A stretch of DNA of 25,004 nucleotides from Promethearchaeota archaeon (GCA_048938005.1 JBHLMQ010000027.1:16772-41775), one strand, 5' to 3'. Positions 4,566 to 25,004 are shown, numbered from the stretch's first letter. Numbers and translations: made by a program. The notes: generated by a model not told the origin, from the letters alone.

Positions 4566-5975
4566 ATGAGCAGTATGAAATATGAAGAAATGAAAGCTAA
4601 GATTGAAAACATTGTTAGTCAGCCACTCAGAGAATTCAAACCCAAAGAATTAGAAGAAATTGTAAAAAGGTATGAAAAAAATCATGTAAAATCAAAGGAA
4701 GCATTTGAGAGAGCCCAAAAAATCATCCCAGGAGGAGTAGAACATAATCTGGCCTTTAATTATCCTTTTCCCCTAACCAGCAAGCGGGTATTTGATTGTT
4801 TTATGGAGACGCTTGATAATATCATCTTAACAGACTTTCTCATGGATGGGGGCCCCATAATTTTAGGACATAATTATCCAAAATTTACAGAAAAAGTAAT
4901 AAATGTCATAAAGGAATCAGCACCCTGTCATGGAATAACTAGCGAATATGAATATTTAGCTGCTGAAGAACTACAGAAATATTTTCCTTCCTGTGAACGA
5001 ATAAGGTGGCTTCAAAGTGGTACAGAAACAAATATGTTAGCTATACGAGTTGCCCGTGTATTTACAGGAAAAAAACATATTATAAAAGTGGGGGGGAGTT
5101 ATCATGGGTGGTCGGATCAGCTGGTTTATGATTTGCATATACCTGGAACGAAAAGAAATGAAGCACATGGGATTCCTAGGGAGATTTTTAAATATATAGA
5201 TGCAGTTCCTCCAAATGATATTGATGCTTTGAGACAAATATTTAAGGAAAAGAAAAAAGTTGCTGCTGTAATTTTGGAACCGATGGGAGGAGAGAGCGGA
5301 GCTATTCCAGTGCGCCCAGGATTCAATAAGGAAGTAGAAGAACTTTGTCATGAAACTGATACGATACTTATTTCCGATGAGGTTGTATGTGCTTTTAGAC
5401 TGCATATGGGTGGTGGCCAAGCTTATTTTGGTTATACTCCAGATCTTTCTGTATTTGGGAAAATTGTAGGTCATGGCTATCCTTCAGCGGCAGCATTAGG
5501 CGGAAGAGCGGATATCATGGCAACTGTCGCAGCTGGAGTAGGAGGAGGGGCAAAAAGAGCATATTGTGGGGGAACACTAGCAGCTAATCCTCTAACTTGT
5601 GCCGCAGCATATTGGGCTATTAAAATTGTTAAAGAGACTAATGCGACTGAAATTGCAGGAAAAGCAGCAACGAGACTCTCTAATGGATTGAATAATGTAT
5701 TCGAAAAATATAATTTACCATGGTTTTCCTACAATTTTGGTGGAACTGTCCATTTTCATACTTCATGTGTTTTTGGTATCGATATAACAAATCCACAACA
5801 AGCTCCTTACGTTAAAGAACGTAAAGAATTTATGGAGCAGATGGGTGCTGCTTTAGTAGATCAAGAGTTAATTTCTGTAGCAGGAAGTAGATTTTATACA
5901 TGTATCCTCCACACAGATAAAATAATTGATGAAACAATTCAAAAAATTGAAAAGATTTGCCAGAAAATTGAATAA
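4566..5975 (+). CDS. Class III PLP-dependent aminotransferase (GSA-aminomutase-like subfamily)
   Basis: IIPGGV, SGTE, GSYHGWSD, ILEP, DEVVCAFR, PDLSVFGKIVGHG (PLP lysine) and GGTLAANP. Confidence 0.9.
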   Translation: MSSMKYEEMKAKIENIVSQPLREFKPKELEEIVKRYEKNHVKSKEAFERAQKIIPGGVEHNLAFNYPFPLTSKRVFDCFMETLDNIILTDFLMDGGPIILGHNYPKFTEKVINVIKESAPCHGITSEYEYLAAEELQKYFPSCERIRWLQSGTETNMLAIRVARVFTGKKHIIKVGGSYHGWSDQLVYDLHIPGTKRNEAHGIPREIFKYIDAVPPNDIDALRQIFKEKKKVAAVILEPMGGESGAIPVRPGFNKEVEELCHETDTILISDEVVCAFRLHMGGGQAYFGYTPDLSVFGKIVGHGYPSAAALGGRADIMATVAAGVGGGAKRAYCGGTLAANPLTCAAAYWAIKIVKETNATEIAGKAATRLSNGLNNVFEKYNLPWFSYNFGGTVHFHTSCVFGIDITNPQQAPYVKERKEFMEQMGAALVDQELISVAGSRFYTCILHTDKIIDETIQKIEKICQKIE

Positions 5976-8375: not shown

Positions 8376-9020
8376 TCATCCAATTTCAGATTTAATTAAT
8401 GAAAGTGCATTTTGTGTTAATTTCTTGATCTCTTCAAATTGTCCTGAAGAAATTAAATCTTTTTTTACTATCCAACTACCCCCACATGCAAGAACATTTC
8501 CTAACTTTAAATAATCAATAAAAGAATCGTTATTTATGCCACCAGTAGGTACAAACCTCATTTCAGGATACGGTCCTGCCAAACTTTTGAGCATATTAAT
8601 TCCTCCAGAAAGATTAGCTGGAAAGAATTTCACGACTTTTAAACCTCTATCAAGTGCCCATTCCACCATGGTTGGAGTATTAACACCCGGAATAATTATT
8701 ATTTTGTTGTTTATGCAATAATTAACAACTTTTGGGTTGAAACCTGGTGTAACTATGAATTTTGCTCCCGCATTCATCGCCTTTTTTACTTGCTCGATTT
8801 TTAGTACAGTTCCCGCTCCAACAAGGAGATTTGGAAAATTTTTCGATAAGATAGATATTGACTCTTCAGCAACTTGTGTTCGGAAAGTTACTTCAATAAT
8901 AGGAAGTCCTACGTCAATTAGTGCTTGAGTTAGAGGGATAGCATCGGAAGGATTTTCTATTATAGCAACAGGAATTAATTTTAATTCTTCAATTTTTTTT
9001 ATAATATCTATATAGATCAC
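8376..9020 (-). CDS. eda: KDPG/KHG aldolase, bacterial Eda type
   Basis: IEVTFRT, VGAGTV, GAKFIVTPG, VKFFPA (Schiff-base Lys), PTGGI and GGSWI. GTG start. Confidence 0.93.
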   Translation of the reverse strand: MIYIDIIKKIEELKLIPVAIIENPSDAIPLTQALIDVGLPIIEVTFRTQVAEESISILSKNFPNLLVGAGTVLKIEQVKKAMNAGAKFIVTPGFNPKVVNYCINNKIIIIPGVNTPTMVEWALDRGLKVVKFFPANLSGGINMLKSLAGPYPEMRFVPTGGINNDSFIDYLKLGNVLACGGSWIVKKDLISSGQFEEIKKLTQNALSLIKSEIG

Positions 9021-9114
9021 TTAATTTATTTTTAAGAACTTATAAAAAATAATTTCTAAAAAGATTTATAATTTTTAATAAAATCAAATCCTATAAGATT
9101 TTAGAATTAATAAA

Positions 9115-9870
9115 ATGATTGATGAAGAAAAGCTATCCAAAGCAGCGCAGATAATTAAAAATTCGAATCATATCATAATATTCTCTGGTGCTGGTATATC
9201 TACAGAATCTGGTATCGATGATTTTAGAAGTCCAGGAGGATTATGGGAAAGATACGACCCAGGTATCTATGCGAGTTATCAATATTTCTTGAAAGATCCT
9301 TCTCTTTTCTGGAAAATGCATAAAGAGGTTGAAGATTTAGTTGGTACAGCAAATCCTAATCAAGCTCATCTAGCTATTGCCGAATTAGAAATCATGGGCA
9401 AAGTGAAAGCGATTATTACGCAAAACATTGATATGTTGCACCAAAAAGCGGGAAGTGGAAAATTTGGCGCTAAAATTTACCAATTACATGGTGAGTATGG
9501 GAAACTTCATTGTGTTCAATGTAATAAAGAATTTAATTATGATGAGATAGATACTAAAAATGTAGAATATCCTATATGTGAGTGTTCAGGTTATATCAAA
9601 CCCAAAGTTGTATTATTTGGAGAATCACTCCCTTATGGTGTTTTGGAAGGAGCTATGGATGAGTGTCGTGATGCGGATTGTTTAATTGTAGTAGGAAGTT
9701 CTTTATTAATATCACCAGCAAATTTCATGCCTTCAATTGCAAAGCAATACGGAGCCCAGCTTATTTTTATAAATCGAGAAAATACTATTATGGATGATCT
9801 TGCTGATGTTTTTTTAAAAGGCAGTGCTGGAGAGATATTCACTGAATTATTAAAAAGAGTAAAATCTTAG
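9115..9870 (+). CDS. cobB: NAD-dependent protein deacylase, Sir2 family
   Basis: GAGISTESGIDDFRS, TQNIDMLHQKAG, LHG, Zn ligands CVQC/CEC, KPKVVLFGE and VGSSL. Confidence 0.93.
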   Translation: MIDEEKLSKAAQIIKNSNHIIIFSGAGISTESGIDDFRSPGGLWERYDPGIYASYQYFLKDPSLFWKMHKEVEDLVGTANPNQAHLAIAELEIMGKVKAIITQNIDMLHQKAGSGKFGAKIYQLHGEYGKLHCVQCNKEFNYDEIDTKNVEYPICECSGYIKPKVVLFGESLPYGVLEGAMDECRDADCLIVVGSSLLISPANFMPSIAKQYGAQLIFINRENTIMDDLADVFLKGSAGEIFTELLKRVKS

Positions 9871-9905
9871 GAACATTGATTAAAATATAAAAACTTTATC
9901 CGAAT

Positions 9906-10061
9906 TCATTGAGATTTTTTTATATCTCTATACTCCTTAGTTATTAAAAATCTAATTATTTCGGTTATATTTTTTATTCCATGATAATCTTTGATAGATT
10001 CTAACTTATCAAATATTTCATTTTCTAGAGAAATATGAAATTCATGTTTTTCATTTTCCAT
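9906..10061 (-). CDS. Small ribbon-helix-helix (CopG/Arc/MetJ-like) DNA-binding protein, 51 aa (not in ORF track)
   Basis: Manual translation gives MENEKHEFHISLENEIFDKLESIKDYHGIKNITEIIRFLITKEYRDIKKSQ*. It shows an alternating beta-strand (EFHISL), helix A, a Gly turn and helix B (NITEIIRFLI). Confidence 0.75.
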   Translation of the reverse strand: MENEKHEFHISLENEIFDKLESIKDYHGIKNITEIIRFLITKEYRDIKKSQ

Positions 10062-10105
10062 TAATAATGATTTTAATAGTTTTATTTAATAATTTTACTA
10101 TATTT

Positions 10106-10142
10106 TGGATTTTTTGTGGATATTATTGGATGTAAAATGGAT
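10106..10142. promoter_or_regulatory. Four helically phased TGGAT direct repeats (putative RHH operator)
   Basis: TGGAT starts at 10106, 10117, 10127 and 10138 (spacing 11, 10, 11), 45-80 bp upstream of the RHH start. Confidence 0.55.
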
Positions 10143-10345
10143 AATTTTATATATGAGTTTGCCATTAGTAAAATTTGAGAAAAAAGTATTATAGGTTACT
10201 AGCATCTATAACAACAGATTTTCACCTCAATAACTTTCGATATTCCAGTACTGAGGACCTAAATTCTATCAACTCTCTTAATTCATATTGAATAGAAAAA
10301 AGGTATTTTGAAATAAATATAACTTTTAAATGAAATTTTAAAAAA

Positions 10346-11317
10346 ATGGTTGAAATAATATTAGCAGTATTAGGCTTAATCATTGGACTGACTCTTATTA
10401 TTTTTTCAAGTATACATGCAGTTAGACATTCCGCTATTCTTGCAGCTGCACTTGGGATTTCACCCTTAATAATTGGAGTAACTTTAGTCTCTATTGGTAC
10501 AGATATTTCTGAAATTTTTAATTCCATTGTATCATGTTCTTTAGGCCATGGAGATATAGATGTAGGTGATTCTGTGGGGTCAGATCTTACCCAACTTACT
10601 CTAATATTTGGTCTATTACCACTAATTACTGGGATAATTTATGTTCATAGGAAAGACATTATCATTTTAGGTGCATGTGAAATTTTATCACTAATATTGA
10701 TTTATACTGTTGTTGAAAAATGGTATATTACAAGATTAGACGCGATTCTTATGGTTGGAAGCTTAGGTATCTATATTTGGCTTATCTATAATACTAATAA
10801 GGAAAGTATTTTACAAAGAGTGGAAATGATTGAAAAAATAAAATCTCCAAAGAGTAAAAAATATCATTTGCTTATCGCTGTATTAGGATTTGGAGGTGTA
10901 ACAATAGCAGCTTATATAATTGTTAACTCTGTTATAGTTATTTCAAGGGCTTTAAATATTCACGAATATATCATAAGTTTCTTTATAGTTGCGGTGGGCA
11001 CCTCGCTACCTGAGTTGGCAGTTGATATTAATGCATTAAGATTGGGGCATCACCAAATCGCTATTGGAGATATTGTTGGTTCTTGTATTGTAGATTCAAC
11101 ACTTTCTATTGGTATAGGGCAAATAATTTTCCCACAAGACTGGTATGGGGGGGTAACAGCATCTCTAGCTGTCCCTACAGTCTTATATACTTTAATTGCT
11201 AGTTTCATAGTCTTTATAACAATTGCAGCAAGAAAGAAAATCGATAAAAAGGCAGGAATTCTATTTATATCAATTTATTTTATATCTTATATATTCCTAT
11301 TTTCTTTTTGGATATAG
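10346..11317 (+). CDS. Sodium/calcium exchanger family (CaCA, YrbG-like) antiporter
   Basis: About 10 TM segments, alpha-repeats SIGTDISE...GDSVGSD and AVGTSLPE...GDIVGS. Confidence 0.88.
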   Translation: MVEIILAVLGLIIGLTLIIFSSIHAVRHSAILAAALGISPLIIGVTLVSIGTDISEIFNSIVSCSLGHGDIDVGDSVGSDLTQLTLIFGLLPLITGIIYVHRKDIIILGACEILSLILIYTVVEKWYITRLDAILMVGSLGIYIWLIYNTNKESILQRVEMIEKIKSPKSKKYHLLIAVLGFGGVTIAAYIIVNSVIVISRALNIHEYIISFFIVAVGTSLPELAVDINALRLGHHQIAIGDIVGSCIVDSTLSIGIGQIIFPQDWYGGVTASLAVPTVLYTLIASFIVFITIAARKKIDKKAGILFISIYFISYIFLFSFWI

Positions 11318-15714: not shown

Positions 15715-15902
15715 ACTTTTTGAGATTTTAATTTTTCAATTAAAACATTCTTATGTTTTTTTATGAATAAATATAGTTAATAAAATGATTTTATTCTATT
15801 TACCAATATACTAATAACCATCTATTTAACAAAAAAACATATATAGATATTATTTATAAAAAAATTATTCAAATATTATCAAAATTTTAAGGTGAAAATA
15901 AA

Positions 15903-16391
15903 ATTCCTCGGCGTTATTATGCCAAATCGAAGAAAACTTATGCAAAAGATCAAACCTTTGAACAAGATCAAGTAGGAGAGGAAAAAGAACGCTATCTAAT
16001 CAGTATAGAATTGATGAGCTTAAAGACTTTAAAAGATTACGATATTTTTGGATGGCGTGGAGAATTTTACTTTAAGGTAGATGGACCTAAAATGTTCAAG
16101 GCCCGATGGCCAAATAAGGGTACCATCAAATTACAAAGGAATCAAGAATTCACAAGTAAGGCTGATATGTCACTATGGAGCCAATTTAAAACAATTCACG
16201 TAGATGATCCCAATGTACAAAAGATAAAAGTAATCCTAAGAGAAAGGGATCACATGAAAAAGGATCATACTGTTTGTGAACAAGAATTTGAAATAAAGCT
16301 ACCTTCAAAAACACAATATGTTATTTTACAGGATGAAAAAGAAAATACTAAGGCTAAACTTCGAATTCAGGCAACAAGAACCAGATATTAA
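15903..16391 (+). CDS. C2-domain-like protein, probably 162 aa from a non-canonical ATT start
   Basis: The frame is open from 15891. AAGGTGA (15889-15895) precedes ATT 15903, giving MPRRYYAKS... C2-like loops DYDIFGWRGEFYFKV and VILRERDHMKKDHTVC are present. The ORF-track start (TTG 16011) cuts the first predicted beta-strand. Confidence 0.6.
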   Translation: MPRRYYAKSKKTYAKDQTFEQDQVGEEKERYLISIELMSLKTLKDYDIFGWRGEFYFKVDGPKMFKARWPNKGTIKLQRNQEFTSKADMSLWSQFKTIHVDDPNVQKIKVILRERDHMKKDHTVCEQEFEIKLPSKTQYVILQDEKENTKAKLRIQATRTRY

Positions 16392-16485
16392 AATTTTATT
16401 AATACTTCTCTTTTTTTTATTTTTTACGATAAGATAAATTTCTCATATTCAGAACTACATGGATGATTATCAGTAACCCAAAATT
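16287..16485 (+). repeat. Left copy of the duplicated C2-tail/intergenic/C45-tail junction; 16435-16485 is identical to 18714-18764
   Basis: 16287-16391 vs 18571-18675 shows 19 differences in 105 nt. The 51-bp core TAAATTTCTCATATTCAGAACTACATGGATGATTATCAGTAACCCAAAATT is identical in both copies. Confidence 0.92.
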
Positions 16486-16706
16486 AAATCAACTCTTTCT
16501 CGAGATGTTGAGCATGTAAAGATCGCAGGAATAGCTCATACGATTTTATCTGCAGCAAAAAAAGTAATATCTTAGACTAAAAACGGTAATTTTAATCAGC
16601 TATCAATAAAAGGTTCTGAAGGTTGTCTTCTTGGTTATTCGTTGAGCCGAACAGGATTCTAATGGTTGTTTCCTATAAAGAAATAGCTCTTGATTCAACA
16701 TTTTGA
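16486..16706 (+). pseudogene. Roadblock/LC7 (MglB-like) pseudogene, 5'-truncated
   Basis: KSTLSRDVEHVKIAGIAHTILSAAKKVIS*TKNGNFNQLSIKGSEGCLL, then a frameshift near 16635, then LFVEPNRILMVVSYKEIALDSTF*. This follows the roadblock pattern S.L...vd..riAa....lls.a......G.f.ql.IkG..Gyll. Confidence 0.75.
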
Positions 16707-16845
16707 ATATTTTATGGATAACGCTTTAAATTCTTACCTGGAATTGTACCTAACTTTTACAATTTGCTTTTTAAAGCAATCCATATTAATTAGAAGTACT
16801 ATATTCTGAAATTTTTTATCAAAATATTATGATGTAATAAAAAAA

Positions 16846-18159
16846 TTATTGAAAATGTTTTTTCATTCCAAATAGTTGGATAATAATAATAGAAAATAGT
16901 ACTATTCCAAAACTAATTAACTCGAAACCAGAAATGGCTTCATTATCACGTGGAAGTTCTAATTCTAAATTTTTTATTATAAACGCATCATTCATAGTAA
17001 CTCCTGGTGTATATCCAACCATATATACATTTCCATTTTCATTAGCTATAACATCTTTTCCAACATTATTGCCTGAAATTGAGCCTTCCCATGTCCCAAA
17101 TCCTAGTAGAGTACCATTACAATCATAATTTATTAATAACGCAGAACTTTCGGGGTAGTCTCCTTCCTTGGATCCTGCAATATAAATATTTGTATTATCT
17201 TCCAACGTTATTCCTTGAGCTATTGAAGCCATATACTGAAAATTTTTACTCCACACTACAGAGCCGAAAGGATTATATTTTCTTACAAATAACAACCTAT
17301 TTGAAAACACTCCATAATAACCTGTTACGTAAATATTACCAAAGTCGTCTACGACAACATCACTGGCTTGTCCACCATAATATGAAGGAAAACTCCATGT
17401 TTTATTCCAAAGTTGTAAACTAGTAATTGCGTTAAGACTTAAAATTAAGGGTTCATTCTCCCCAGTTGCTTGGTTAAAAAATTGACCTACAATATAAATT
17501 AAATCTTCAAATGAGCTTATTCCAAAAACAATCTTCCTGACTGTATTTTTTTGGCCAAAGGTTACATTCCAAACTTCATTTCCATTTGCGTCAAGTTTTA
17601 GGAGAAAGTATTTATAATTAGATCCATAAGCCATCTCTCCAGTGACATAGAAATTCCCGCTTTGACTTAATACCATATCCTGCACATAACACCCAGTAGC
17701 ATCTTCTTTAAACCATGTTTTATTCCAGAGATAATTTCCTCCATTATCATATTTTATCAACATAAATTCAGATCTAAAAAGACTCGGATTATAATAATCA
17801 TTAGCCACATAAATTTCTGTTCCATTAACTGCAAGTGCCCTAAACCAATCTTGGCTACCACCGTTTAGAGTAGCATTCCAAAGTTGGTTTCCAAATTCGT
17901 CAAATTTTGTTATAAATAGGTCCATAGTTGTATTGCTGGAAATTCCTCCAAATATAATATTATCATTATCATCAATCCCAACATCTATAGCCATATCATC
18001 TCTGTCATCAAATCTACTCCATATTGAAACCCAATCATAACTTGAAGAGAGATTAATGATTTGATTTTGTGGTTCTTTCCCTAATAAAGTAGGTGTTATC
18101 AATAATATTCCAATTAAAGATAATAATAACGTTTTTAATAATATTTTTTCAATTTTCAT
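16846..18159 (-). CDS. Secreted beta-propeller (SBBP-like repeat) surface protein with Loki-CTERM/PGF-CTERM-like anchor
   Basis: N-terminal signal peptide, repeats such as DVVVDDFGNIYVTG, LFITKFDEFGNQLWN and FLLKLDANGNEVWN, many N-x-S/T sequons, and a C-terminal ISGF + TM helix + KK. Confidence 0.85.
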   Translation of the reverse strand: MKIEKILLKTLLLSLIGILLITPTLLGKEPQNQIINLSSSYDWVSIWSRFDDRDDMAIDVGIDDNDNIIFGGISSNTTMDLFITKFDEFGNQLWNATLNGGSQDWFRALAVNGTEIYVANDYYNPSLFRSEFMLIKYDNGGNYLWNKTWFKEDATGCYVQDMVLSQSGNFYVTGEMAYGSNYKYFLLKLDANGNEVWNVTFGQKNTVRKIVFGISSFEDLIYIVGQFFNQATGENEPLILSLNAITSLQLWNKTWSFPSYYGGQASDVVVDDFGNIYVTGYYGVFSNRLLFVRKYNPFGSVVWSKNFQYMASIAQGITLEDNTNIYIAGSKEGDYPESSALLINYDCNGTLLGFGTWEGSISGNNVGKDVIANENGNVYMVGYTPGVTMNDAFIIKNLELELPRDNEAISGFELISFGIVLFSIIIIQLFGMKKHFQ

Positions 18160-18209
18160 AATTAACTATTTGAAATTAAAACTATAAAAAGGATTACTTC
18201 TGAATTTTT

Positions 18210-18470
18210 TCAATAGATTTTAAATTTATAAAACAAACATGATTCCTCTACTTCTACTATCTCTAAATCAATGTTTAATCCATCCATTATTGAGAGAAAT
18301 TGTTTTGGTTGTATTGTTGTTGCTTTAAATCCATCTTTACAGATTATTGTTCCATTTTTTGATTTTTAATAATCCATTTCACCCAATAGTCCTGCTTCTG
18401 ACTGCAATTAAAACCACTTCAGGCGATAGTCCCAGAATTTATCTAAATATGTTGAAAATAAGATTTTTCC
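18210..18470 (-). pseudogene. 3' remnant of a probable class I SAM-dependent methyltransferase
   Basis: GKILFSTYLDKFWDYRLKWF*LQSEAGLLGEMDY*KSKNGTIICKDGFKATTIQPKQFLSIMDGLNIDLEIVEVEESCLFYKFKIY*, one frame with stops at 18408-18410 and 18366-18368. The family was recalled from the FW..RL.WF.lQ...GLlGE.D...CKDGFkATT pattern. Confidence 0.6.
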
Positions 18471-18471
18471 T

Positions 18472-18573
18472 CTTAAAATATTTTTAACTATTTCCATAGT
18501 AATTTGTCCAATGTGTTTTTTTAATAACTCAATTTCTCTCTGATAACGTCTTATTGGAGATTCAATAGGATTT
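18472..18573 (-). pseudogene. Internal fragment of the C45 hydrolase gene (diverged copy of ~18863-18964)
   Basis: NPIESPIRRYQREIELLKKHIGQITMEIVKNIL vs NPIESPIRRYQREIELLKVQNGHITMETVKKIL in the intact gene. Confidence 0.9.
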
Positions 18574-18675
18574 GAAATAAAATTGCCATCAAATACGCAA
18601 TATGTTGTTCTACAAGATAAAAAAGAGAACATAAAAGCCAAACTCCGAATTCAGGCAACTAGAACAAGATATTAA
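18571..18675 (+). pseudogene. 3' fragment of the C2-like gene (diverged copy of 16287-16391)
   Basis: FEIKLPSNTQYVVLQDKKENIKAKLRIQATRTRY* vs FEIKLPSKTQYVILQDEKENTKAKLRIQATRTRY*: 4 amino-acid changes, the other differences synonymous. Confidence 0.92.
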
Positions 18676-18705
18676 AATTTTTATTTCCTTTTTTTTTATT
18701 TTTAT

Positions 18706-19854
18706 TTATAATTTAAATTTCTCATATTCAGAACTACATGGATGATTATCAGTAACCCAAAATTCCCTTTTAGTTGGTAGGACAATTATTGATCCTAAGG
18801 TTCCCGCTGCAGTTCCATGTGTACAGACTGTGAAATCATCTGGTTCTCTCTTATCATGATCACTCAAAATTTTTTTGACTGTTTCCATAGTAATATGTCC
18901 ATTTTGTACTTTCAATAACTCGATTTCTCTCTGATAACGTCTTATTGGAGATTCAATAGGATTTATATCCATATCATCCATTTTAAATCGTACATAATCA
19001 GGTAAATTAGCGTCTTTAAGTTTTTCAGTTTGATAATGATTGGTATGAGCTAAAATCCCTGCTTCAGGTCGTCGAATGGCATGACGAGTGCTTGTAGTTT
19101 CAATAACACATACATCTTCAGAAGTATCCATTAGTCCATAATGACATCCATTTGCTCGGCCAATGAAGTTAGTAATAGAATCAACAGCTTCTTGGGTTTT
19201 AGCACAAGTTTCTAAAACTTCTTGTACAATAAAGGTGCCAGGAACACCTTTCAATCTAAAGTCAAGTGGCTCTTTTTTCCATGAGCGTCCGTAATTATAA
19301 CCAATAACTAATCCTTTCTCATTCATTCCCATATGACAACCAGTAAGAGGAAATTGTGTGAAGTTTATATTTTTATATCCATCGTCAGGTTCTTCTTCGC
19401 GAACTACCTGAAATGGTTGGAGAACATTAGGAAAATCATAGTTTCGTCCAAATATTAATATATTATCAGCAGTAGATTCAGGCAACGCAAAAATCATTGA
19501 ACATGCTTGGATTGGAGGATTTTTATAAATAGATTTTGGATCTCCTGACATAACTTCTATAAAATGAGTTCCATAAATAATTCTTTCTTTTATGTCAGCT
19601 GCTTTACTTATCGCTATCATTTTCTCATATTGATTAGGAAGAAGTTGGTGTAGAGATTTTTTTATGTTCTTTTTACCCATATAACCTAAAGCAAGTTTTA
19701 TAATCGACAGAGGTATTAATTTAGATGTTACTTCTGAAAACATTTTTGAGTGAAAAACAATATCAAACATATTCTGAATTTTATCTTTCAATTGTTTCCC
19801 CTGTTGTGAACCTCTTTCAGCAGGACTTCCCTTTAGTTTAATAAAATCAACCAT
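18706..19854 (-). CDS. C45-family autoproteolytic acyltransferase/hydrolase (Ntn fold)
   Basis: LKGSPAERGSQQG pro-region, A|CS nucleophile site followed by FGRNYDF, GMNEKGL and HTNHY. Confidence 0.88.
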   Translation of the reverse strand: MVDFIKLKGSPAERGSQQGKQLKDKIQNMFDIVFHSKMFSEVTSKLIPLSIIKLALGYMGKKNIKKSLHQLLPNQYEKMIAISKAADIKERIIYGTHFIEVMSGDPKSIYKNPPIQACSMIFALPESTADNILIFGRNYDFPNVLQPFQVVREEEPDDGYKNINFTQFPLTGCHMGMNEKGLVIGYNYGRSWKKEPLDFRLKGVPGTFIVQEVLETCAKTQEAVDSITNFIGRANGCHYGLMDTSEDVCVIETTSTRHAIRRPEAGILAHTNHYQTEKLKDANLPDYVRFKMDDMDINPIESPIRRYQREIELLKVQNGHITMETVKKILSDHDKREPDDFTVCTHGTAAGTLGSIIVLPTKREFWVTDNHPCSSEYEKFKL

Positions 19855-19920: not shown

Positions 19921-21324
19921 TTACAATTTCTTCGCTTGCCATCTATATATGGCAAATGCGAAAATTACAACAAGAACAGCAACAATTATCTGAATAAGTC
20001 CAACAATCGGGGAAAATTCTTGTCCAATTAAATCACCTAATGCCAAGGAAATAACCAAAATGGCGATTTCGAAAACCGCAAGATAATTTAGAATTGCCAG
20101 AAATTTGTTTTCGATAGCTGAGGATTTAGTATTAAGTGTGTTTCTTTGTCTGTTAAGTGTCTTTCTAATCCTCGTAATAACATCATCTGTAGCATTTGAG
20201 AATGTAAATCCGTCTAATTTCTCGATTTGTTCATTAAACATACTTGTTTTAAATGTGCTTGTAAATAATAATCGAGTAATTTTTGATATAATTACATCTT
20301 TATTTAATTCAAGTATGATTCTATTGAGTTCAGTCTCCAATTGTTCCAATCTATCAATCTTTTCATTCAAAGTTAACCTTTCTTCCATTGCTCTGGTTTC
20401 TGAAATAATTCTATCAAACTTTTCTGCTACAACCAAAATGTTTTCCATGTGCATAAGAATTAAAAATCTTTGAACATTACCGACTTCTGGACCGAACAAA
20501 GTATCTATAAGAAAATTTTTCATCGTATAAGGATCTAAAAGACCTGGTCCGGGAATTACTACATTACCTGCATGTGTGATCATAACAAATTCATCTTTAT
20601 ATGGAGCAAGATTTTTAAGTTTAATTTGATCTCTATATGCTATAGGATCTAATTCTCTATATTTATCAGTGCGTAGTGTGAGTCCAATTGAGTAGTTAGC
20701 ATTTTTTCCAATTTCTTCTCCAATGAAACGGTAATCTGCCCTATTGAATTCTGGTTTAGCATCCCAAATTATCCATGTATGATGCCAAGGTTCTAAAACT
20801 GATTCCAATTTAGCTTTATCTGGATAATTTGCTTTCTTCAATAGAGAAATAACATTATCTCTTACTTCTATAAATTTTTCAGTTATAGGCTTACCAGTAC
20901 TCTGAAGAATCATATTAGTGGGTTGTGAAATCTCAATAAAATCTTCAATCTTATGGTAATTATCAAATATTAGTTCGCAATGAATAACTAATACAGAACC
21001 ATAGTGAATATGTCCTTCTAGCCTGATCTTTCCCACTATATGTTGAGCGGTGGCACAAGAAAATCTATCCGACTTCCCTATCTTGAAACATACTGGCGCA
21101 AAATTATCTGATTGGCTAGAAATCCATTTTAAAGGTTGAGATATTTTTGTACCATCAGCATTTTCAATTTTAAACCGATAATCTTTATACAATTTTAAAG
21201 ATCCTTCCTTTTCTAGATAATTCCGCATTTCTGGAAGCTCAAAATAAAGTCCTAATTCATAAAACTTCCAAAAGATAAGTGTTACTTTGAAGATATATTC
21301 TTCTTCTGATGGTGAATATGTCAT
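19921..21324 (-). CDS. Hypothetical protein with large soluble domain, coiled coil and two C-terminal TM helices (CorA-like topology)
   Basis: Heptad-like region EKIDRLEQLETELNRIILEL, TM segments FLAILNYLAVFEIAILVISLAL and IVGLIQIIVAVLVVIFAFAIY. No GMN motif. Confidence 0.7.
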   Translation of the reverse strand: MTYSPSEEEYIFKVTLIFWKFYELGLYFELPEMRNYLEKEGSLKLYKDYRFKIENADGTKISQPLKWISSQSDNFAPVCFKIGKSDRFSCATAQHIVGKIRLEGHIHYGSVLVIHCELIFDNYHKIEDFIEISQPTNMILQSTGKPITEKFIEVRDNVISLLKKANYPDKAKLESVLEPWHHTWIIWDAKPEFNRADYRFIGEEIGKNANYSIGLTLRTDKYRELDPIAYRDQIKLKNLAPYKDEFVMITHAGNVVIPGPGLLDPYTMKNFLIDTLFGPEVGNVQRFLILMHMENILVVAEKFDRIISETRAMEERLTLNEKIDRLEQLETELNRIILELNKDVIISKITRLLFTSTFKTSMFNEQIEKLDGFTFSNATDDVITRIRKTLNRQRNTLNTKSSAIENKFLAILNYLAVFEIAILVISLALGDLIGQEFSPIVGLIQIIVAVLVVIFAFAIYRWQAKKL

Positions 21325-21406
21325 AAATCTCTCGTAAAAAATTGTTAATATATACTATGTTTCTCAAAAATTTAAAATAATCTCATTTTATTAAAAACTT
21401 AAATCA

Positions 21407-21424
21407 TCACATTTTGTAATGTGA
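21407..21424. promoter_or_regulatory. Palindrome TCACATT-N4-AATGTGA (putative transcription-factor site)
   Basis: Perfect 7-bp arms 83-100 bp upstream of the 21324 start. Confidence 0.4.
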
Positions 21425-21491
21425 GTTAAAAACCAATATTAAGAATCAAGTAATTATATTAACTGGTTTAATAAATTAATTCTTTATCTAG

Positions 21492-21517
21492 CAAAAGAAG
21501 ATATCTATTTATCTTCT
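21492..21517 (-). terminator. Hairpin followed by a short U-tract
   Basis: AGAAGATA-N6-TATCTTCT (21496-21517) followed by a short T run on the minus strand, just after the stop at 21529. Confidence 0.4.
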
Positions 21518-21528
21518 CTCTTATGAAT

Positions 21529-22185
21529 TTATGTTAATTCTGTTATTTTATCTGCAATATTTTTTAGACGCAAATTTCCAATCCCAAAATTTACGGTTCT
21601 TGAAAATATCAGAACTATAATGAATTCTATTCTATTAATTTTAATATATTCTGCACAAACTTTCTGATGATTCCTTAATTCAAGGAACATTTTTGAAATG
21701 CTATGCATCTTTTTTTCATCCCTTACTTCGAATTCTCTGATTGTATCTAGTAAGGTGTCTTGGGAAATAGAGGTATATAAAACAGTACCTTTAACTGTAA
21801 ATATTGCACTACCCAATATTTCTTTATCATCGACAGCATTTCTTAAAAGATTAATTATGTCTTGAAAGAGTGGTAAAGAAGCTAAATTTCTAGTGTCTTC
21901 AGCATCGCCTACTCTTCTACTCTTATAATACTCTACTTTCGGAAATTCAAAGTCTACTACTTGATATCCTCTTACCGAAGCTTGCTGATCAACGAATGCT
22001 TGAAAGTGATGTTCGCAGATCATTCCTGTAGGAATGCTAATCGTTATTACGTTTTGACTCTGATCAATTATTTTTGAAGGAACTTTTAAATTCTTTTGTG
22101 TTTGACATTCAGGACATCTTAAAAGAATATTTTTGAATAATCTAGCTTGACTTATTTCCTCTTCATTTATTTTTGTGTCGCTCAA
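21529..22185 (-). CDS. Zn-ribbon + roadblock/longin-like fold protein
   Basis: N-terminal CPEC...CEHHFQAFVD. C-terminal ILGSAIFTVKGTVLYTS...NFGIGNLRLKNIADKI resembles the roadblock beta-hairpin and terminal helix. TTG start. Confidence 0.65.
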   Translation of the reverse strand: MSDTKINEEEISQARLFKNILLRCPECQTQKNLKVPSKIIDQSQNVITISIPTGMICEHHFQAFVDQQASVRGYQVVDFEFPKVEYYKSRRVGDAEDTRNLASLPLFQDIINLLRNAVDDKEILGSAIFTVKGTVLYTSISQDTLLDTIREFEVRDEKKMHSISKMFLELRNHQKVCAEYIKINRIEFIIVLIFSRTVNFGIGNLRLKNIADKITELT

Positions 22186-22372
22186 CTTACTGACATTATA
22201 AATATGTTTTATTTAAAAAAACAATATTATCTCATCAATTTATAATTTTGTTCACTTAAAAGAAAATATAAAAATGATACTTTTTATTAAGTCTATTTTA
22301 TTAAAATCTAATATCAATACTTAATAATAAGGAAAAATAAAACTAATTTTATTTATTGAGCAACAGAGATAG

Positions 22373-22993
22373 ATGAGCAAGAAATTAAATATTAATGTCA
22401 TAATTGCTAGTTTGGAAGATGCAGCAGGAATTCATAAAGTATTAAAGCAAAATTTAGTAGAAATAAGTGATATTGATCAAATTACAAAAAAAGAAAGAAA
22501 AATTTTTGAAGATCAAGGTTTTCTGCGCAAAGAAGTAGAAATAGAATACTATGAAAACTTAATTAAAGATATTGATACTAAAATTTATGTTGCTAAAGAA
22601 AATAGTGGAAATATTATTGGTTTTGCTACTATTCATAAAAAAAAATTTAATATAATAAAAGTTCGGGATGTTATTGGCAATCTTTCATTTGAAAATGATA
22701 GAACAAAAAAATTACTCCTTAATAAAAATACAGAATTCGCATACTTAGACCAAATAAGTATATTGCCTGAATTTAAACGTAAAGGAGTAGGTACAGCAAT
22801 ATTTAAAAAAGCTTTAAAAGAAATAGATACACCTATTGTTGCTTTTATTGTAGAAAAACCACTATTTAATAAAGCATCAATTTATTGGCATGAGTACAAT
22901 GGATTTGTATTCTCTGCTATAAGTGATGGCGAATACAAAGGAAAACTGTTTAAATTCCAGATCTTTATACATTGGAATAAAAAAGAATCATAA
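22373..22993 (+). CDS. GNAT-family N-acetyltransferase
   Basis: YLDQISILPEFKRKGVGTAIF (acetyl-CoA motif A) and NKASIYWHEYNGF (motif B). Confidence 0.88.
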   Translation: MSKKLNINVIIASLEDAAGIHKVLKQNLVEISDIDQITKKERKIFEDQGFLRKEVEIEYYENLIKDIDTKIYVAKENSGNIIGFATIHKKKFNIIKVRDVIGNLSFENDRTKKLLLNKNTEFAYLDQISILPEFKRKGVGTAIFKKALKEIDTPIVAFIVEKPLFNKASIYWHEYNGFVFSAISDGEYKGKLFKFQIFIHWNKKES

Positions 22994-22999
22994 TTCAAA

Positions 23000-23971
23000 A
23001 TGTTAGAGCTTTTTTTATGGATTTTGCTATTCCTTATTGGATATTTACTAATTTTTTTCGCTGCAGATGTCTTTTTAGATAATCTAAAAGATATATGTAT
23101 AATATACGGTTTATCTCCTTTCATTATTGGAGCATTAATCATAGGTATTGATCCAGAAGAATCAATTGCTTCGATTATTGCTGCAATAAGTGGATTACCT
23201 TATATCGCAGTTGGAAATGTCATAGGCAATTCAATCATAGCGTTGACAATAAGTTTCGCAATACCTGCTTTTTTCTATAAAATCAGTTTTAACTCCACAC
23301 CACAATTTTACTTTATATTATTATACAGTTGTATGAGTTTAATTCTTATTGGAATGTTAGTTAATTTTGGATTATTTATAGCTGGAATTATTGTTATTTT
23401 TGTATATTTTATTTATTTTTTTGTGAATATAAAAAATCTCTATAAAAAAAGTACTTTGGAAGGGATACCTAGGGAGAATTCAGGACAAAATGATATCCAG
23501 ATTCAGGAACTAAGAGAAAAATCAAAATTTAGAAAAATAATTTTTATAATTATTAGTTTTATTTTCATATTTTTAGGAGGGGAACTATTAATTTTCTCTA
23601 CAGAACAAATCATTATTCTAACAAATATCCCTGAAACATTCTTTGGGCTTGTAATTATTGCTTTTGTTACAAATGTTGAAGAATTAACTTTAGTTATAAA
23701 ATCCATAAAAAAAAAGAGTGTTGAAATAGGCTTAGGAGGGATGATTGGAAAAATATTCTGGAATCTAACACTTACATTCGGAATTAGTGCAATTATTATA
23801 GTGAATTTTACCCTTTCATTGATTATGTTTTGGAATTGGTTAATTCTATTAACTATAATTCTCTATTTTAATTGGATTTCAAAGAAAAAATCGATGAAAT
23901 GGAATGATGGAATAACTTTAACAGCAATACTTGCTATCTTTTTAATAGTAAACTTTACTATAGGTTTATAA
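23000..23971 (+). CDS. Divergent CaCA (Na+/Ca2+ exchanger-like) membrane protein
   Basis: About 10 TM segments, GLSPFIIG, AVGNVIGNS, and variant alpha-repeats GIDPEE and VTNVEE. Starts 6 bp after the GNAT stop, so probably an operon. Confidence 0.82.
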   Translation: MLELFLWILLFLIGYLLIFFAADVFLDNLKDICIIYGLSPFIIGALIIGIDPEESIASIIAAISGLPYIAVGNVIGNSIIALTISFAIPAFFYKISFNSTPQFYFILLYSCMSLILIGMLVNFGLFIAGIIVIFVYFIYFFVNIKNLYKKSTLEGIPRENSGQNDIQIQELREKSKFRKIIFIIISFIFIFLGGELLIFSTEQIIILTNIPETFFGLVIIAFVTNVEELTLVIKSIKKKSVEIGLGGMIGKIFWNLTLTFGISAIIIVNFTLSLIMFWNWLILLTIILYFNWISKKKSMKWNDGITLTAILAIFLIVNFTIGL

Positions 23972-24063
23972 TAACTTAAGTTGTAACTATAAAGGATTTC
24001 TAAACCTTTCAAAAAAATTTATAAAAAGAAGAATTTGTTAAATATTGGCTTAAAATAATCATA

Positions 24064-24774
24064 TTAATAATTATTGTCTTCTTCAGCTTCGGGTACTTCT
24101 TTAAGGGCTTCAATAATATTAATAATATCTTCAGCGAGTTCATAGCGTTCAGCTCGATATTTCTCTCGATTTAGTCTTTTCTCAACCTTCAAGGGTGTGC
24201 CAATCTTTACTTTTATACCGTCTCCAGTAAACATATTTAATATCTTTGTTTTTTCCGTATATATCGCAATCGGAATAATAGGCGCTTCTCCAACAACAGC
24301 AAACTTAATAATTGCTGCCATCGATTTTATTTGAACCTCTCTCTCATGCTTAGACTCAGGAGTCATCCCTACTAGATCTCCTTTCTCATTTAATATTTCA
24401 AAAACTTTATCGATAGGCTCCGTATCTTCTTTACTTTCTGTTCCGCGTATCATTCCAAGACTTTTCAACACTGGACCAGCTATCTGATGCTTCATTAATT
24501 TAGGATCAAGCATAAAATGTATTTTACGCCCTGTGACTTGACTTATTATTAACATATCACGGATAATATTCGGTGTGACTGTAGTTAAAATCGCTTTTCC
24601 TCTCAAAGGAATATTTTCTTGCCCTTCGATTTTTAAATCCATAAAAGCTTTGAAAAATAAGCCACTTAATCCTTTTACAGCACCATAAAGGAAATCAGTA
24701 GCTATTGCCATTGGATTTAACTTATCTCCTTCTTCTTTTATTTCTGGAGTTGAATCTTCATTTATTTCACTCAT
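24064..24774 (-). CDS. PlsC/LPLAT-fold acyltransferase-like protein with degenerate catalytic motif
   Basis: IEGQENIP..G.AIL, RKIHFM, GMTPE, APIIPIAI and VKIGTP are present. NHxSxxD is replaced by TVTPNIIRD. Upstream AGAGGT RBS. Confidence 0.78.
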   Translation of the reverse strand: MSEINEDSTPEIKEEGDKLNPMAIATDFLYGAVKGLSGLFFKAFMDLKIEGQENIPLRGKAILTTVTPNIIRDMLIISQVTGRKIHFMLDPKLMKHQIAGPVLKSLGMIRGTESKEDTEPIDKVFEILNEKGDLVGMTPESKHEREVQIKSMAAIIKFAVVGEAPIIPIAIYTEKTKILNMFTGDGIKVKIGTPLKVEKRLNREKYRAERYELAEDIINIIEALKEVPEAEEDNNY

Positions 24775-24791
24775 TTTTTAATTACCTCTTA

Positions 24792-24986
24792 TTATAATTT
24801 ATCTATAAAATCATTAACTTCTTCCATTCTTTTTTCATAATATTCTTTTAAATCTTTTTCTGAAACAAATGTGGGAATAACCTTTTCTGTATAAAGATCA
24901 AAAATGGTACTTAACTTAGTCTTGTGCCTAAGGGTTTCAAGGAACTCCTCACCCAATTCTTTTAACTGTTTTAAAAATTCTGTCAT
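24792..24986 (-). CDS. Small hypothetical helical protein (64 aa)
   Basis: ATG preceded by GGGAGG (24999-25004, minus strand). Co-oriented, 17 bp upstream of the PlsC-like gene. Confidence 0.65.
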   Translation of the reverse strand: MTEFLKQLKELGEEFLETLRHKTKLSTIFDLYTEKVIPTFVSEKDLKEYYEKRMEEVNDFIDKL

Positions 24987-25004
24987 ATCCTTAAAAAACC
25001 TCCC

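What the first reader, a model, noticed from the sequence alone, without database searches (positions are those of the whole stretch)
16287..18963. Recombinase-free gene-capture scar: foreign 2-kb segment nested in a duplicated, allelically diverged C2/C45 junction
Seen, in order: intact C2-like gene, intergenic a, 51-bp C45 3' core (16435-16485), insert 16486-18471, C45 internal fragment (18472-18573), ATTT microhomology (18570-18573), C2 tail copy, intergenic b, identical 51-bp core (18714-18764), intact C45 gene. The C2 tails differ at 19/105 nt but only 4/34 residues. Both were therefore under purifying selection as coding sequence, which points to a related lineage or allele rather than simple decay of a local duplicate. 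The two C45 ends encode different C-termini (EKFILS* vs EKFKL*). Inference: a small circle carrying homologous pieces of this locus plus cargo was closed at the microhomology and integrated by a single crossover in the 51-bp core, leaving both resident genes intact. No integrase or transposase is in the window. This may be a homology-guided cassette-acquisition route in Asgard archaea, and it could be excisable.
Basis: partly seen in the sequence, partly recalled or inferred. Interest (0 to 1): 0.72.

Follow-up and report, generated by a model that had tools for sequence, protein, structure and literature searches.

The report
Gene insertion scar with allelic repeats
A 2.3-kb piece of DNA carrying a surface-protein gene was added between two neighbouring genes of a Loki-type Asgard archaeon by ordinary recombination with DNA from a related lineage, and similar scars elsewhere suggest these archaea often gain genes this way without a dedicated integrase.

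Summary

- **Site.** It is empty in 26 of the 35 same-genus loci that hold both genes. Five unrelated inserts occupy it in different species.
- **Origin of the orphan gene-A tail.** It differs from the resident tail at 19 of 99 coding bases, 14 at third codon positions, with 4 residue changes. Random change gave 4 or fewer in 0 of 100,000 trials. With its spacer and core it is 92% identical to another species' allele and 83% to the local copy. It therefore came from a related lineage.
- **Recombinase.** No integrase or transposase family was found in the window, and the genome holds one tyrosine recombinase.
- **Mechanism.** The simplest model is a chromosomal fragment circularised at ATTT and integrated by one crossover in the 51-nt identical tract. 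This was produced experimentally in E. coli (PMC3240628). A linear one-anchor event, or a mis-resolved 51-nt repeat in the assembly, cannot be excluded.
- **New details.** The "cargo" also holds a dead methyltransferase fragment. Four other loci of this genome show the same layout with empty sites in relatives.

The scan noted similar scars before, in DPANN archaea.

The parts
16011..16391 (+). Gene A, intact, 126 aa, conserved in the genus. No Pfam family; 'C2-like' is unverified.
   Evidence: ORF. 82-97% identical orthologues in 20 of 24 same-genus genomes. No Pfam hit. AF2 pLDDT 42. Atlas rank-21 C2 cluster, score 0.91.
16290..16423 (+). Left repeat, resident part: gene-A tail (16290-16391) plus spacer a.
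   Evidence: Closest to G019/G060 alleles, tail 91-92%. Groups with G019+G060 at 89/81 in the tree that includes the core.
16424..16485 (-). Orphan copy of the C45 3' end (…EKFILS*). 16435-16485 is the 51-nt tract identical to 18714-18764.
   Evidence: The core is identical to the G022 allele, 50/50 to G041, and has 4 differences to G019.
16486..16845 (.). 360 nt of the insert with no recognised gene or RNA. Junction J1 lies at 16485|16486.
   Evidence: No match in 53 genus genomes. No Rfam or tRNA hit. Six-frame translation is full of stops.
16846..18159 (-). Cargo gene: 437-aa protein with an N-terminal signal-like segment, SBBP beta-propeller repeats and a C-terminal membrane anchor.
   Evidence: ORF. 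PF06739, E 1.2e-5. Nearest relatives outside its own cluster are 50-54% identical. Best in the family: G049 55% and G059 53%, both at other loci.
18219..18470 (-). Dead fragment: the last 84 codons of a methyltransferase-like gene with two in-frame stops, cut off at junction J2 (about 18471|18472).
   Evidence: tblastn with the 224-aa ORF of G041: 57% over 84 residues, E 1e-27, stops shown. No intact copy in G000.
18472..18573 (-). Orphan internal fragment of C45 (codons about 298-330). It ends in the ATTT microhomology at 18570-18573 (junction J3).
   Evidence: 89% to 18863-18964. 95% to G019 and 93% to G022. A contig of run X1 crosses J3 with 0 differences (record 3).
18574..18705 (+). Right repeat, incoming part: orphan gene-A tail (18574-18675, open frame of 33 codons plus stop) and spacer b.
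   Evidence: 19 differences to the left tail, 14 at third positions, 4 residue changes. With the 51-nt core, 92% identical to the G022 allele. Tail plus spacer form a clade with G022 at 94/85.
18706..19854 (-). Intact C45-family (PF03417) gene. 18714-18764 is the 51-nt tract, and the last codons (…EKFKL*) are of the G022 type.

Best explanation
This is a real scar of additive gene acquisition, made by the cell's general recombination and end-joining functions and not by a dedicated integrase.

A 2,279-bp segment was added at the 3' end of C45. Its order is core, 360 nt of unknown DNA, the surface-protein gene, a dead methyltransferase fragment, a C45 internal fragment, a gene-A tail and spacer b. 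The pieces of gene A and C45 inside it are alleles from a related lineage, so the incoming DNA was a piece of a relative's copy of this same locus that already carried the cargo.

The simplest route has two steps:
1. The fragment was closed into a circle at the 4-nt microhomology ATTT.
2. The circle entered by a single homologous crossover in the 51-nt tract that was identical in donor and recipient.

This duplicates the homologous segment (203 nt) on either side of the cargo and leaves gene A and C45 intact. C45 now ends with the donor's last codons.

- **Shown:** the anatomy, the empty site in relatives, the coding-type divergence of the orphan tail, and the absence of a recombinase gene nearby.
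- **Inferred:** the circle, the order of events, the donor, and the enzymes (RadA-type strand exchange, end joining).
For: 1. **Anatomy and identical tract**.
2. **Empty site.** Gene A and C45 lie 28-61 nt apart in 26 of 35 same-genus loci that hold both genes, including the nearest relatives G019 and G022.
3. **The orphan tail diverged under purifying selection.** 14 of 19 differences are at third positions and there are 4 residue changes. Simulated random change gave a mean of 11.95 changed codons, 4 or fewer in 0 of 100,000 trials, and a stop in 58% of trials.
4. **The mosaic fits a crossover at the core.**
   - Left tail and spacer are G019/G060-like.
   - Right tail and spacer are G022-like (94/85).
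   - Both cores are G022-type.
   - C45 beyond 18764 is again closer to G019. Over 18863-18964 it is 92% to G019 and 86% to G022; 18765-18862 was judged by eye on the alignment.
5. **No recombinase.** No integrase or transposase family is in the window, and there is one PF00589 gene in the genome, on another contig.
6. **The break points are not site-specific.** Independent insertions at this junction left 62 nt (G000), 114 nt (G012) and 48 nt (G056) of the C45 end, each with unrelated cargo.
7. **The same layout occurs at four other loci of this genome,** with empty sites in relatives: C4, C70 at 23.9 kb, C9 and C24.
8. **Experimental precedent** (PMC3240628, passages read). In E. coli, 56 of 60 analysed clones carried a duplication of the homologous segment, and the 14 sequenced measured 109-950 bp. 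The authors ascribe it to degradation, recircularisation and a single crossover. 4 of 60 were HFIR.
9. **Contigs of an independent k=31 assembly of run X1 cover each junction.** The flanks and the cargo have like depth, 11, 11 and 12.2.
Against: - The AU test does not reject the two copies being each other's closest relatives: p 0.124 without the core and 0.298 with it. The segments are only 145-194 columns long.
- The donor was not found. The best allele is 92% identical (G022), and the cargo gene has no relative between 55% and 99% identity.
- The core allele is identical or nearly so in several lineages (G022, G041, G067, G017, G045). Its identity in the two copies therefore need not mark a crossover.
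- The model needs an earlier event in the donor that put the cargo inside C45. That event made junctions J1 and J2 and lost 98 nt.
- No circle junction, empty-site read or spanning read was seen. All runs on offer were k=31 contigs, which break at the 51-nt repeat. X1 may also be the sample the genome came from.
- The C45 fragment is no closer to G022 (93%) than to G019 (95%).
Confidence: 0.42

Rival explanations
1. Linear, one-anchor recombination (homology-facilitated illegitimate recombination, HFIR) from the left. A linear fragment came from a donor in which the cargo sat inside C45: (…p250, gene A, spacer a, C45 end, cargo, C45 fragment). It recombined homologously somewhere to the left, and its right end was joined at ATTT inside the resident gene A. 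On this reading the whole left side is incoming. The orphan tail, spacer b and C45 are the resident DNA.
For: - It gives exactly the observed order with one event.
- HFIR is established in bacteria (PMC3240628, abstract and passages).
- The core allele is identical in lineages that have a G019-type gene A, e.g. G041 at 50/50, so no conversion is needed.
- The right flank 22293-25004 is 93% identical to G022, like the orphan tail plus spacer plus core at 92%.
- G012 has the same pattern: its left side is 95.8% identical to G057 and its C45 89.7%.
Against: - C45 itself is no closer to G022 (88%) than to G019 (89%), and past the core it is closer to G019.
- In the E. coli experiment HFIR was the rarer outcome, 4 of 60 against 56 of 60.
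- It needs the same unseen donor with a broken C45.
Confidence: 0.2
2. Assembly problem at the 51-nt repeat. Under this reading the chromosome has the empty site, and the 2,279-bp unit belongs to a co-occurring strain or is a free circle or tandem array. The contig switched paths at the two identical cores.
For: - In the k=31 contigs of X1 the graph is 2-in/2-out at the core. Records end at 16464 and start at 16456, and end at 18743 and start at 18735, so both pairings are possible.
- Related strains at 90-95% identity are present in the same run: 11 of 25 contigs laid.
- The mosaic boundaries coincide with the cores.
- A seeming duplication in G058 proved to be an N-gap scaffolding artefact.
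Against: - The window has no N run here.
- A 51-nt repeat is shorter than ordinary reads, so most assemblers resolve it (own knowledge).
- The flank and cargo contigs have like depth, 11, 11 and 12.2 (weak evidence).
- Junction J3 is crossed by a contig with 0 differences. The duplicated structure therefore exists in some DNA whichever pairing holds.
- G012 and G056, which are separate genomes, show the same kind of scar at this site.
Confidence: 0.13
3. Remnant of an integrase-driven integrative element that targets the 3' end of C45 and carries a surrogate gene end. Its integrase would have been lost or would act in trans.
For: - Identical 51-nt direct repeats at a gene's 3' end, with a replaced C-terminus, look like attL/attR.
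- The site is used repeatedly.
Against: - No integrase is in the insert or the window, and the genome has only one PF00589 gene.
- The repeat runs on for 150 nt through the spacer into gene A, which such an element has no need for.
- The insert holds an internal C45 fragment and a dead methyltransferase piece, that is, scraps of chromosome.
- The break points differ between events: 62, 114 and 48 nt.
- The other scars of this genome lie at unrelated sequences.
Confidence: 0.08
4. Old tandem duplication of the whole gene A-C45 pair. Both copies stayed functional for a long time. One copy of each was then destroyed by a deletion at ATTT and by the cargo insertion (hidden paralogy).
For: It would explain coding-type divergence without any transfer. 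The AU test does not reject a local sister relation.
Against: - None of the 41 relatives' loci examined holds two full copies of either gene.
- The orphan tail groups with one species' single-copy allele.
- The 51-nt tract is identical while the rest differs by 11-18%.
Confidence: 0.06

Closest known systems
Single-crossover integration of recircularised linear DNA, and HFIR, in bacteria (Amarir-Bouhram et al. 2011, PMC3240628; HFIR in Acinetobacter, Streptococcus pneumoniae and Pseudomonas stutzeri as recalled)
   Same: - One homologous segment guides foreign DNA into the chromosome without a site-specific recombinase.
- The homologous segment ends up duplicated on both sides of the foreign DNA: 109-950 bp in the sequenced E. 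coli clones, 203 nt here.
- One joint is illegitimate.
   Different: - Those are laboratory events with plasmid constructs. This is a natural scar in an uncultured Asgard archaeon.
- The two repeat copies here are alleles of different lineages.
- The incoming piece was itself a rearranged copy of the same locus.
- The archaeal enzymes and the route of DNA entry are unknown.
Integrative elements of archaea and bacteria that insert into the 3' end of a tRNA or protein gene and carry a surrogate gene end (tyrosine integrases of the SSV and pNOB8 types; recalled)
   Same: Direct repeats made of a gene's 3' end flank the insert. The gene stays intact with a new C-terminus. The site is used repeatedly.
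   Different: - There is no integrase.
- The repeat is long and imperfect, and it spans two gene ends and the spacer.
- The break points differ between events.
- The insert contains scraps of the same chromosomal locus.
Chromosomal hot spots of gene gain between conserved core genes (Oliveira et al. 2017; recalled, not read here)
   Same: A junction between conserved genes holds different accessory genes in different species: five unrelated contents here.
   Different: Hot-spot turnover is usually ascribed to double crossovers in the flanking core genes, which leave no scar. Here the scar shows an additive, one-sided event.
Duplicated gene ends flanking small inserts in DPANN archaea
   Same: A spare copy of a gene's end lies on the far side of an insert. 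The copies look like alleles. No recombinase is present.
   Different: Those are mostly 20-70-nt repeats around tiny hairpin elements or single small genes, in another phylum. I did not test them.

Membership tests
Homology-guided additive integration (single crossover of a circularised fragment, or HFIR) | The homologous segment is duplicated as direct repeats on both sides of the added DNA. | tested here: met
   203 nt at 83% flank the 2.3-kb addition. The site is single-copy and empty in 26 of 35 relatives' loci.
Homology-guided additive integration (single crossover of a circularised fragment, or HFIR) | An illegitimate joint at a few bases of microhomology. | tested here: met
   ATTT is shared by the C45 fragment end and the start of the gene-A tail. 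A contig of X1 crosses the joint with 0 differences.
Homology-guided additive integration (single crossover of a circularised fragment, or HFIR) | A tract of perfect identity long enough for strand exchange at the exchange point. | tested here: met
   51 nt identical; P 0.0005 under random placement of the mismatches. The same allele occurs in several lineages.
Homology-guided additive integration (single crossover of a circularised fragment, or HFIR) | The incoming copy comes from another genome (allelic, not decayed, divergence). | tested here: inconclusive
   Synonymous bias is very strong and the clade with G022 has support 94/85. The AU test of a local origin gives p 0.124, and no donor was found.
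Homology-guided additive integration (single crossover of a circularised fragment, or HFIR) | Dependence on the general recombinase (RecA/RadA) and existence of a circular intermediate. | not testable with these tools
   Only k=31 contigs were available, with no raw reads.
Integrase-driven integrative element | An integrase gene in or beside the element. | tested here: not met
   No recombinase family among 22 ORFs of the window. One PF00589 gene in the genome, on contig C11. Serine recombinases and other classes were not searched genome-wide.
Integrase-driven integrative element | The same crossover site in independent insertions. | tested here: not met
   The retained C45 end is 62 nt (G000), 114 nt (G012) and 48 nt (G056).
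Transposon or insertion sequence | A transposase, terminal inverted repeats and a short exact target duplication. | tested here: not met
   No transposase family. No inverted repeat with arms at the insert ends among 39 pairs found, of which the 25 longest were shown. The repeat is 203 nt and imperfect.
Local tandem duplication followed by decay | The spare copy accumulates random (mostly residue-changing, stop-creating) differences. | tested here: not met
   4 residue changes against a simulated mean of 11.95. 0 of 100,000 simulations gave 4 or fewer. The frame is still open.
Assembly or scaffolding artefact | An N gap, or junctions unsupported by other assemblies. | tested here: inconclusive
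   No N is present. All four junction types are found in X1 contigs, and the core-to-cargo junction also in runs of two other studies. Nothing links the two cores.

The most novel reading that the evidence does not exclude
Lokiarchaeia, and perhaps archaea at large, may routinely gain genes by a recombinase-free route.

- Scraps of a relative's chromosome are closed into small circles at microhomologies.
- They are then inserted by a single crossover at short identity tracts in gene ends or spacers.
- This leaves allelic direct repeats.
- It fills 'safe' junctions between genes with surface-protein and other accessory genes.
- It can in principle be reversed by recombination between the repeats.

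The scars would then be a readable record of who gave what to whom.
Probability: 0.3. Interest if true: 0.72.

Novelty: new variant of a known kind. Interest (0 to 1): 0.55.

Why it matters
Asgard archaea have large, fluid genomes rich in surface proteins, yet few integrases or transposons account for how genes arrive.

A scar that keeps both alleles of the recombining segment shows the mechanism directly: homologous exchange plus a microhomology joint with DNA of a related species. It also shows that the exchange leaves both resident genes working.

If the roughly dozen similar scars in this genome, and those at the same site in other species, have the same origin, then ordinary recombination is a main route of gene gain in these organisms. 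The repeats could then be mined across metagenomes to trace donors, rates and preferred sites.

The mechanism itself is known from bacterial genetics, so this extends it to nature and to archaea and is not a new principle.

Tried and rejected
- **Donor search.** DNA search of 18472-18764 in all 54 genus genomes gave G022 at 92% as the best match and no near-identical donor. DNA search of the insert in the genus found only 66-68% matches to the gene at other loci, plus the methyltransferase piece. A protein search of 5.8 billion sequences found nothing between 55% and 99% identity.
- **Metagenome contig scans.** The 51-nt core gave 0 matches. A 25-nt part gave 4 loci, 3 empty sites and one with the 2.2-kb G003-type insert. 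This added nothing on the cargo.
- **Reads.** Only k=31 contigs were on offer. They break at the core, so neither the empty site nor the circle junction could be tested.
  - The one joint listed (16485 to 18964, one X1 contig, side 36, 'between: not known') is most simply a diverged strain's C45 and I give it no weight.
  - The stretch 18580-18713 had no cover in X4. This is not evidence of absence.
- **RNA and repeats.** Rfam gave only a chance-level miRNA hit (E 0.73), and there is no tRNA in the window. No inverted repeats lie at the insert ends.
- **Gene A.** The AlphaFold model had pLDDT 42 and was unusable, so no fold search was run. The PDB sequence search gave only weak chance-level hits.
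- **Other scars in this genome.** I examined 10 of 12 picked loci.
  - C63, C74, C60 (46.6 kb), C60 (11.4 kb) and C70 (62.6 kb) lie in regions without conserved synteny in the five relatives queried, or are complex.
  - In C28 the scar is shared with G014.
  - C23 and C65 were not examined.
- **G058.** Its 'duplication' is an N-gap scaffolding artefact.
- **Base composition.** The insert is not set apart (GC 0.32-0.34 in the gene, as in neighbouring genes).

Full report
**What is there.**

The window is the last 25 kb of contig C44 of a 3.72-Mb, 101-contig genome. Earlier notes of this scan and source names of related proteins ('Promethearchaeota') place it in the Loki-type Asgard archaea.

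The order of elements on the + strand is as follows.

| Coordinates | Element |
|---|---|
| 16011-16391 | Intact 126-aa gene A |
| 16392-16423 | Spacer a, 32 nt |
| 16424-16485 | 62-nt orphan copy of the 3' end of the C45-family gene on the - strand, ending EKFILS* |
| 16486-18471 | 1,986-bp insert |
| 18472-18573 | 102-nt orphan internal piece of C45, 89% identical to 18863-18964 |
| 18570-18573 | ATTT shared by both partners of the next joint |
| 18574-18675 | Orphan gene-A tail, open frame of 33 codons plus stop |
| 18676-18705 | Spacer b |
| 18706-19854 | Intact C45 gene (PF03417, E 1e-28), ending EKFKL* |

- The last 51 nt of the left C45 piece are identical to 18714-18764.
- The whole repeat (tail, spacer, C45 end) is 203 nt at 83% identity (E 3e-56). 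It occurs nowhere else in the genome.
- A 51-nt perfect run among 33 mismatches in 198 columns arose in 0.05% of random placements.

**What the insert holds.**

- **Cargo gene.** A 437-aa protein (16846-18159, - strand) has a signal-like N-terminus, SBBP beta-propeller repeats (PF06739) and a C-terminal anchor. It belongs to a family with many members in this clade: 114 of 135 family genomes have a match. Its nearest relatives outside its own 99% cluster are only 50-54% identical.
18219-18470 (- strand) is the last 84 codons of a methyltransferase-like gene. It is 57% identical to a 224-aa ORF of G041, has two in-frame stops, and is cut off exactly where the C45 fragment begins. G000 has no intact copy.
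- **Unmatched DNA.** The 360 nt at 16486-16845 match nothing.
- **Composite structure.** The segment has three illegitimate junctions: 16485|16486, about 18471|18472, and 18573|18574.
- **Composition.** Its base composition does not differ from that of its surroundings.

**The site is empty in relatives and is a hot spot.**

I examined the locus in 41 of the 53 other genomes of the genus.

| State of the locus | Genomes |
|---|---|
| No C45 | 4 (G002, G013, G021, G023) |
| No gene A | 2 (G017, G024) |
| Both genes, convergent and 28-61 nt apart | 26, including the nearest relatives G019 and G022; in G067 gene A is reduced to its last 26 codons |
| Both genes, 171-nt gap | 1 (G048) |
| Both genes, run of N between two identical 77-nt stretches (scaffolding artefact) | 1 (G058) |
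| Both genes, insert of 0.8-2.3 kb | 7 |

- The inserts, with that of G000, are of five unrelated kinds. G003, G041, G049 and G061 share one. G012, G056, G015 and G000 each have their own.
- G012 and G056 also keep an orphan copy of the C45 end next to gene A, 114 and 48 nt long, around different cargo.
- The break points therefore differ between events.

**Where the orphan pieces come from.**

- **Coding-type divergence.** The two gene-A tails differ at 19 of 99 coding bases: 4 at first, 1 at second and 14 at third codon positions. There are 4 residue changes and no stop. Placing 19 changes at random, with the observed ratio of transitions, gave a mean of 11.95 changed codons. It gave 4 or fewer in 0 of 100,000 trials, and a stop in 58% of trials. 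The orphan tail therefore spent nearly all of its divergence inside a working gene.
- **Affinity to another species.** The orphan tail, spacer b and core are 92% identical to the allele of G022 and 83% to the window's own left copy. In a tree of tail plus spacer (145 columns, 40 rows) the right copy joins G022 with support 94/85. In the tree that includes the core, the left copy joins G019 and G060 with support 89/81.
- **Formal test.** The AU test does not formally reject the two copies as sisters: p 0.124 without the core and 0.298 with it.
- **Mosaic pattern.**
  - Spacer a and the EKFILS* end are of the G019 type.
  - Spacer b and EKFKL* are of the G022 type.
  - Both cores are of the G022 type (4 differences to G019).
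  - C45 beyond 18764 is again nearer to G019.
- **The C45 fragment.** It resembles G019 (95%) and G022 (93%) more than the window's own C45 (89%), which has several changes of its own there.

**How it most likely arose.**

All readings that fit need three things:
1. DNA of a related lineage.
2. A microhomology joint between a C45-internal point and the gene-A tail.
3. A homologous exchange.

No recombinase is at hand. Pfam found no integrase or transposase family in 22 ORFs of the window. The genome has one tyrosine recombinase, on another contig.

A fragment of a relative's locus already carried the cargo in place of 98 nt of C45. It was closed at ATTT and entered by one crossover in the 51-nt tract. 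This reproduces the mosaic without further events.

It has a direct laboratory precedent. In E. coli, 56 of 60 analysed clones carried a duplication of the homologous segment. The 14 that were sequenced measured 109-950 bp. The authors attribute this to partial degradation, recircularisation and a single crossover. Only 4 of 60 were HFIR (PMC3240628; abstract and passages read).

I cannot exclude a linear HFIR-type event anchored to the left. In that case gene A and everything left of it would be the incoming DNA. The core allele is identical in G022 and G041 and nearly so in G067, G017 and G045, so identical cores need not mark a crossover. G012 shows a left side 95.8% and a C45 89.7% identical to G057, which is the pattern a one-anchor replacement predicts.

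**Is the contig right?**

- Only Logan contigs (k=31) were available, and they necessarily break at a 51-nt repeat.
- In run X1, records cover 15900-16464, 16456-18561, 18544-18743 and 18735-18952. The third crosses the C45-fragment/gene-A-tail joint with 0 differences.
- The long flank and cargo records have depths 11, 11 and 12.2.
- The core-to-cargo junction also appears in runs of two other studies (X4, X5).
- Each junction therefore exists in real DNA. The pairing of the two entries and two exits of the core is not shown.
- The other pairing would mean an empty chromosome plus a 2,279-bp circle, or another strain. X1 may also be the source sample.
- I put this at about 13%.

**Is it general?**

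- A self-comparison of the genome gave 135 same-strand pairs 0.2-8 kb apart. From these I picked 12 short pairs (75-281 nt, 79-90% identical) besides this one.
- In most, a gene end or a spacer is repeated on either side of one to six genes. I ran no family search on these proteins. None looked like a recombinase when read by eye, and many look like surface-anchored proteins. The repeats have sharp edges.
- I examined 10 of the 12 in five relatives.
- Four show a single-copy, empty site:

| Locus | Relatives with the empty site |
|---|---|
| C4 | G014, G060 |
| C70 at 23.9 kb | G019, G022, G054, G014 |
| C9 | G014 |
| C24 | G060 |

- For C24, the repeat that flanks the cargo is a shorter copy, about 45 nt, of the neighbour gene's 3' end. 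It was inferred from overlapping hits and is not the 114-nt pair I had picked.
- Five were uninformative or complex.
- In one, C28, the scar is shared with G014. There a 553-nt stretch is 98% identical against 85% in the flank, which points to recent exchange between species.
- Two were not examined.

**Comparison with known systems, and verdict.**

- The product looks like attL/attR of an integrative element with a surrogate gene end. The defining features fail: there is no integrase, the break points vary, and the repeat runs through a spacer into a second gene.
- It is not a transposon: no transposase, no terminal inverted repeats, and no short exact duplication.
- It matches homology-guided additive integration as known from bacterial genetics.
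- I found no description of such scars in Asgard archaea in two full-text searches. Searches were listings only; the papers on Asgard mobile elements were not read.
- Earlier notes of this scan report similar 'duplicated gene ends' in DPANN archaea (unchecked).
- I rate it a new variant of a known kind, of moderate interest (0.55).

Noticed in passing
window 18219-18470 (- strand): A truncated methyltransferase-like pseudogene (last 84 codons, two in-frame stops) lies inside the insert and abuts the C45 fragment. G000 has no intact copy of this gene.
   Followed up: yes
L076 (G058:C25), about 4880-5080: An apparent duplication of the C45 3' end in G058 is two identical 77-nt stretches either side of a run of N. 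It is a scaffolding artefact, not biology.
   Followed up: yes
L034 (G012) 8594-10974; also L065 (G056), L078 (G043), L079 (G063): A second variable junction lies between gene A and the 250-aa membrane gene. These four genomes hold a 2.4-2.6-kb insert there. In G012 it holds a 557-aa and an 89-aa ORF that look like an FAD oxidoreductase and a small ferredoxin (read by eye, not tested).
   Followed up: no
window 19921-22185: The 467-aa and 218-aa genes right of C45 are also present or absent from species to species. For example, both are missing in G022, and the 467-aa gene is missing in G005, G008 and G045. The whole stretch is a variable region.
   Followed up: partly
G000:C28:5225-5777 (L094 1226-1778) against G014:C153 end: A 553-nt stretch is 98% identical between two species whose flanks here are 85% identical. 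It starts exactly at a repeat copy and runs into an esterase-like cargo gene, which points to recent exchange between species.
   Followed up: partly
G000:C24:123640-124682 (L095 1640-2682) against G014:C36: A 329-aa cargo gene is 93% identical to G014's while the flanks are 78-87% identical. G014 carries extra short copies of the neighbouring gene's 3' end around it.
   Followed up: partly
G000:C60:11627-14128 and G000:C74:6582-9077: Two paralogous surface-protein genes (833 and 831 aa), very alike when their printed sequences are compared by eye, each sit between imperfect direct repeats at different loci.
   Followed up: no
L074 (G067) 5046-5123; L039 (G017); L044 (G024): Gene A is reduced to its last 26 codons in G067 and is gone in G017 and G024 apart from its last 20-35 nt. 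Deletions therefore also end inside the gene-A tail in nature.
   Followed up: partly
run X13, loose ends at window 16435 and 16485: A contig of a fourth study carries the core flanked by a different spacer and a diverged C45. This suggests that this core allele is shared by diverged lineages living in sediments.
   Followed up: no
window 10346-11317 and 23000-23971: Two Na/Ca-exchanger family genes (PF01699) lie 12 kb apart in the window.
   Followed up: no
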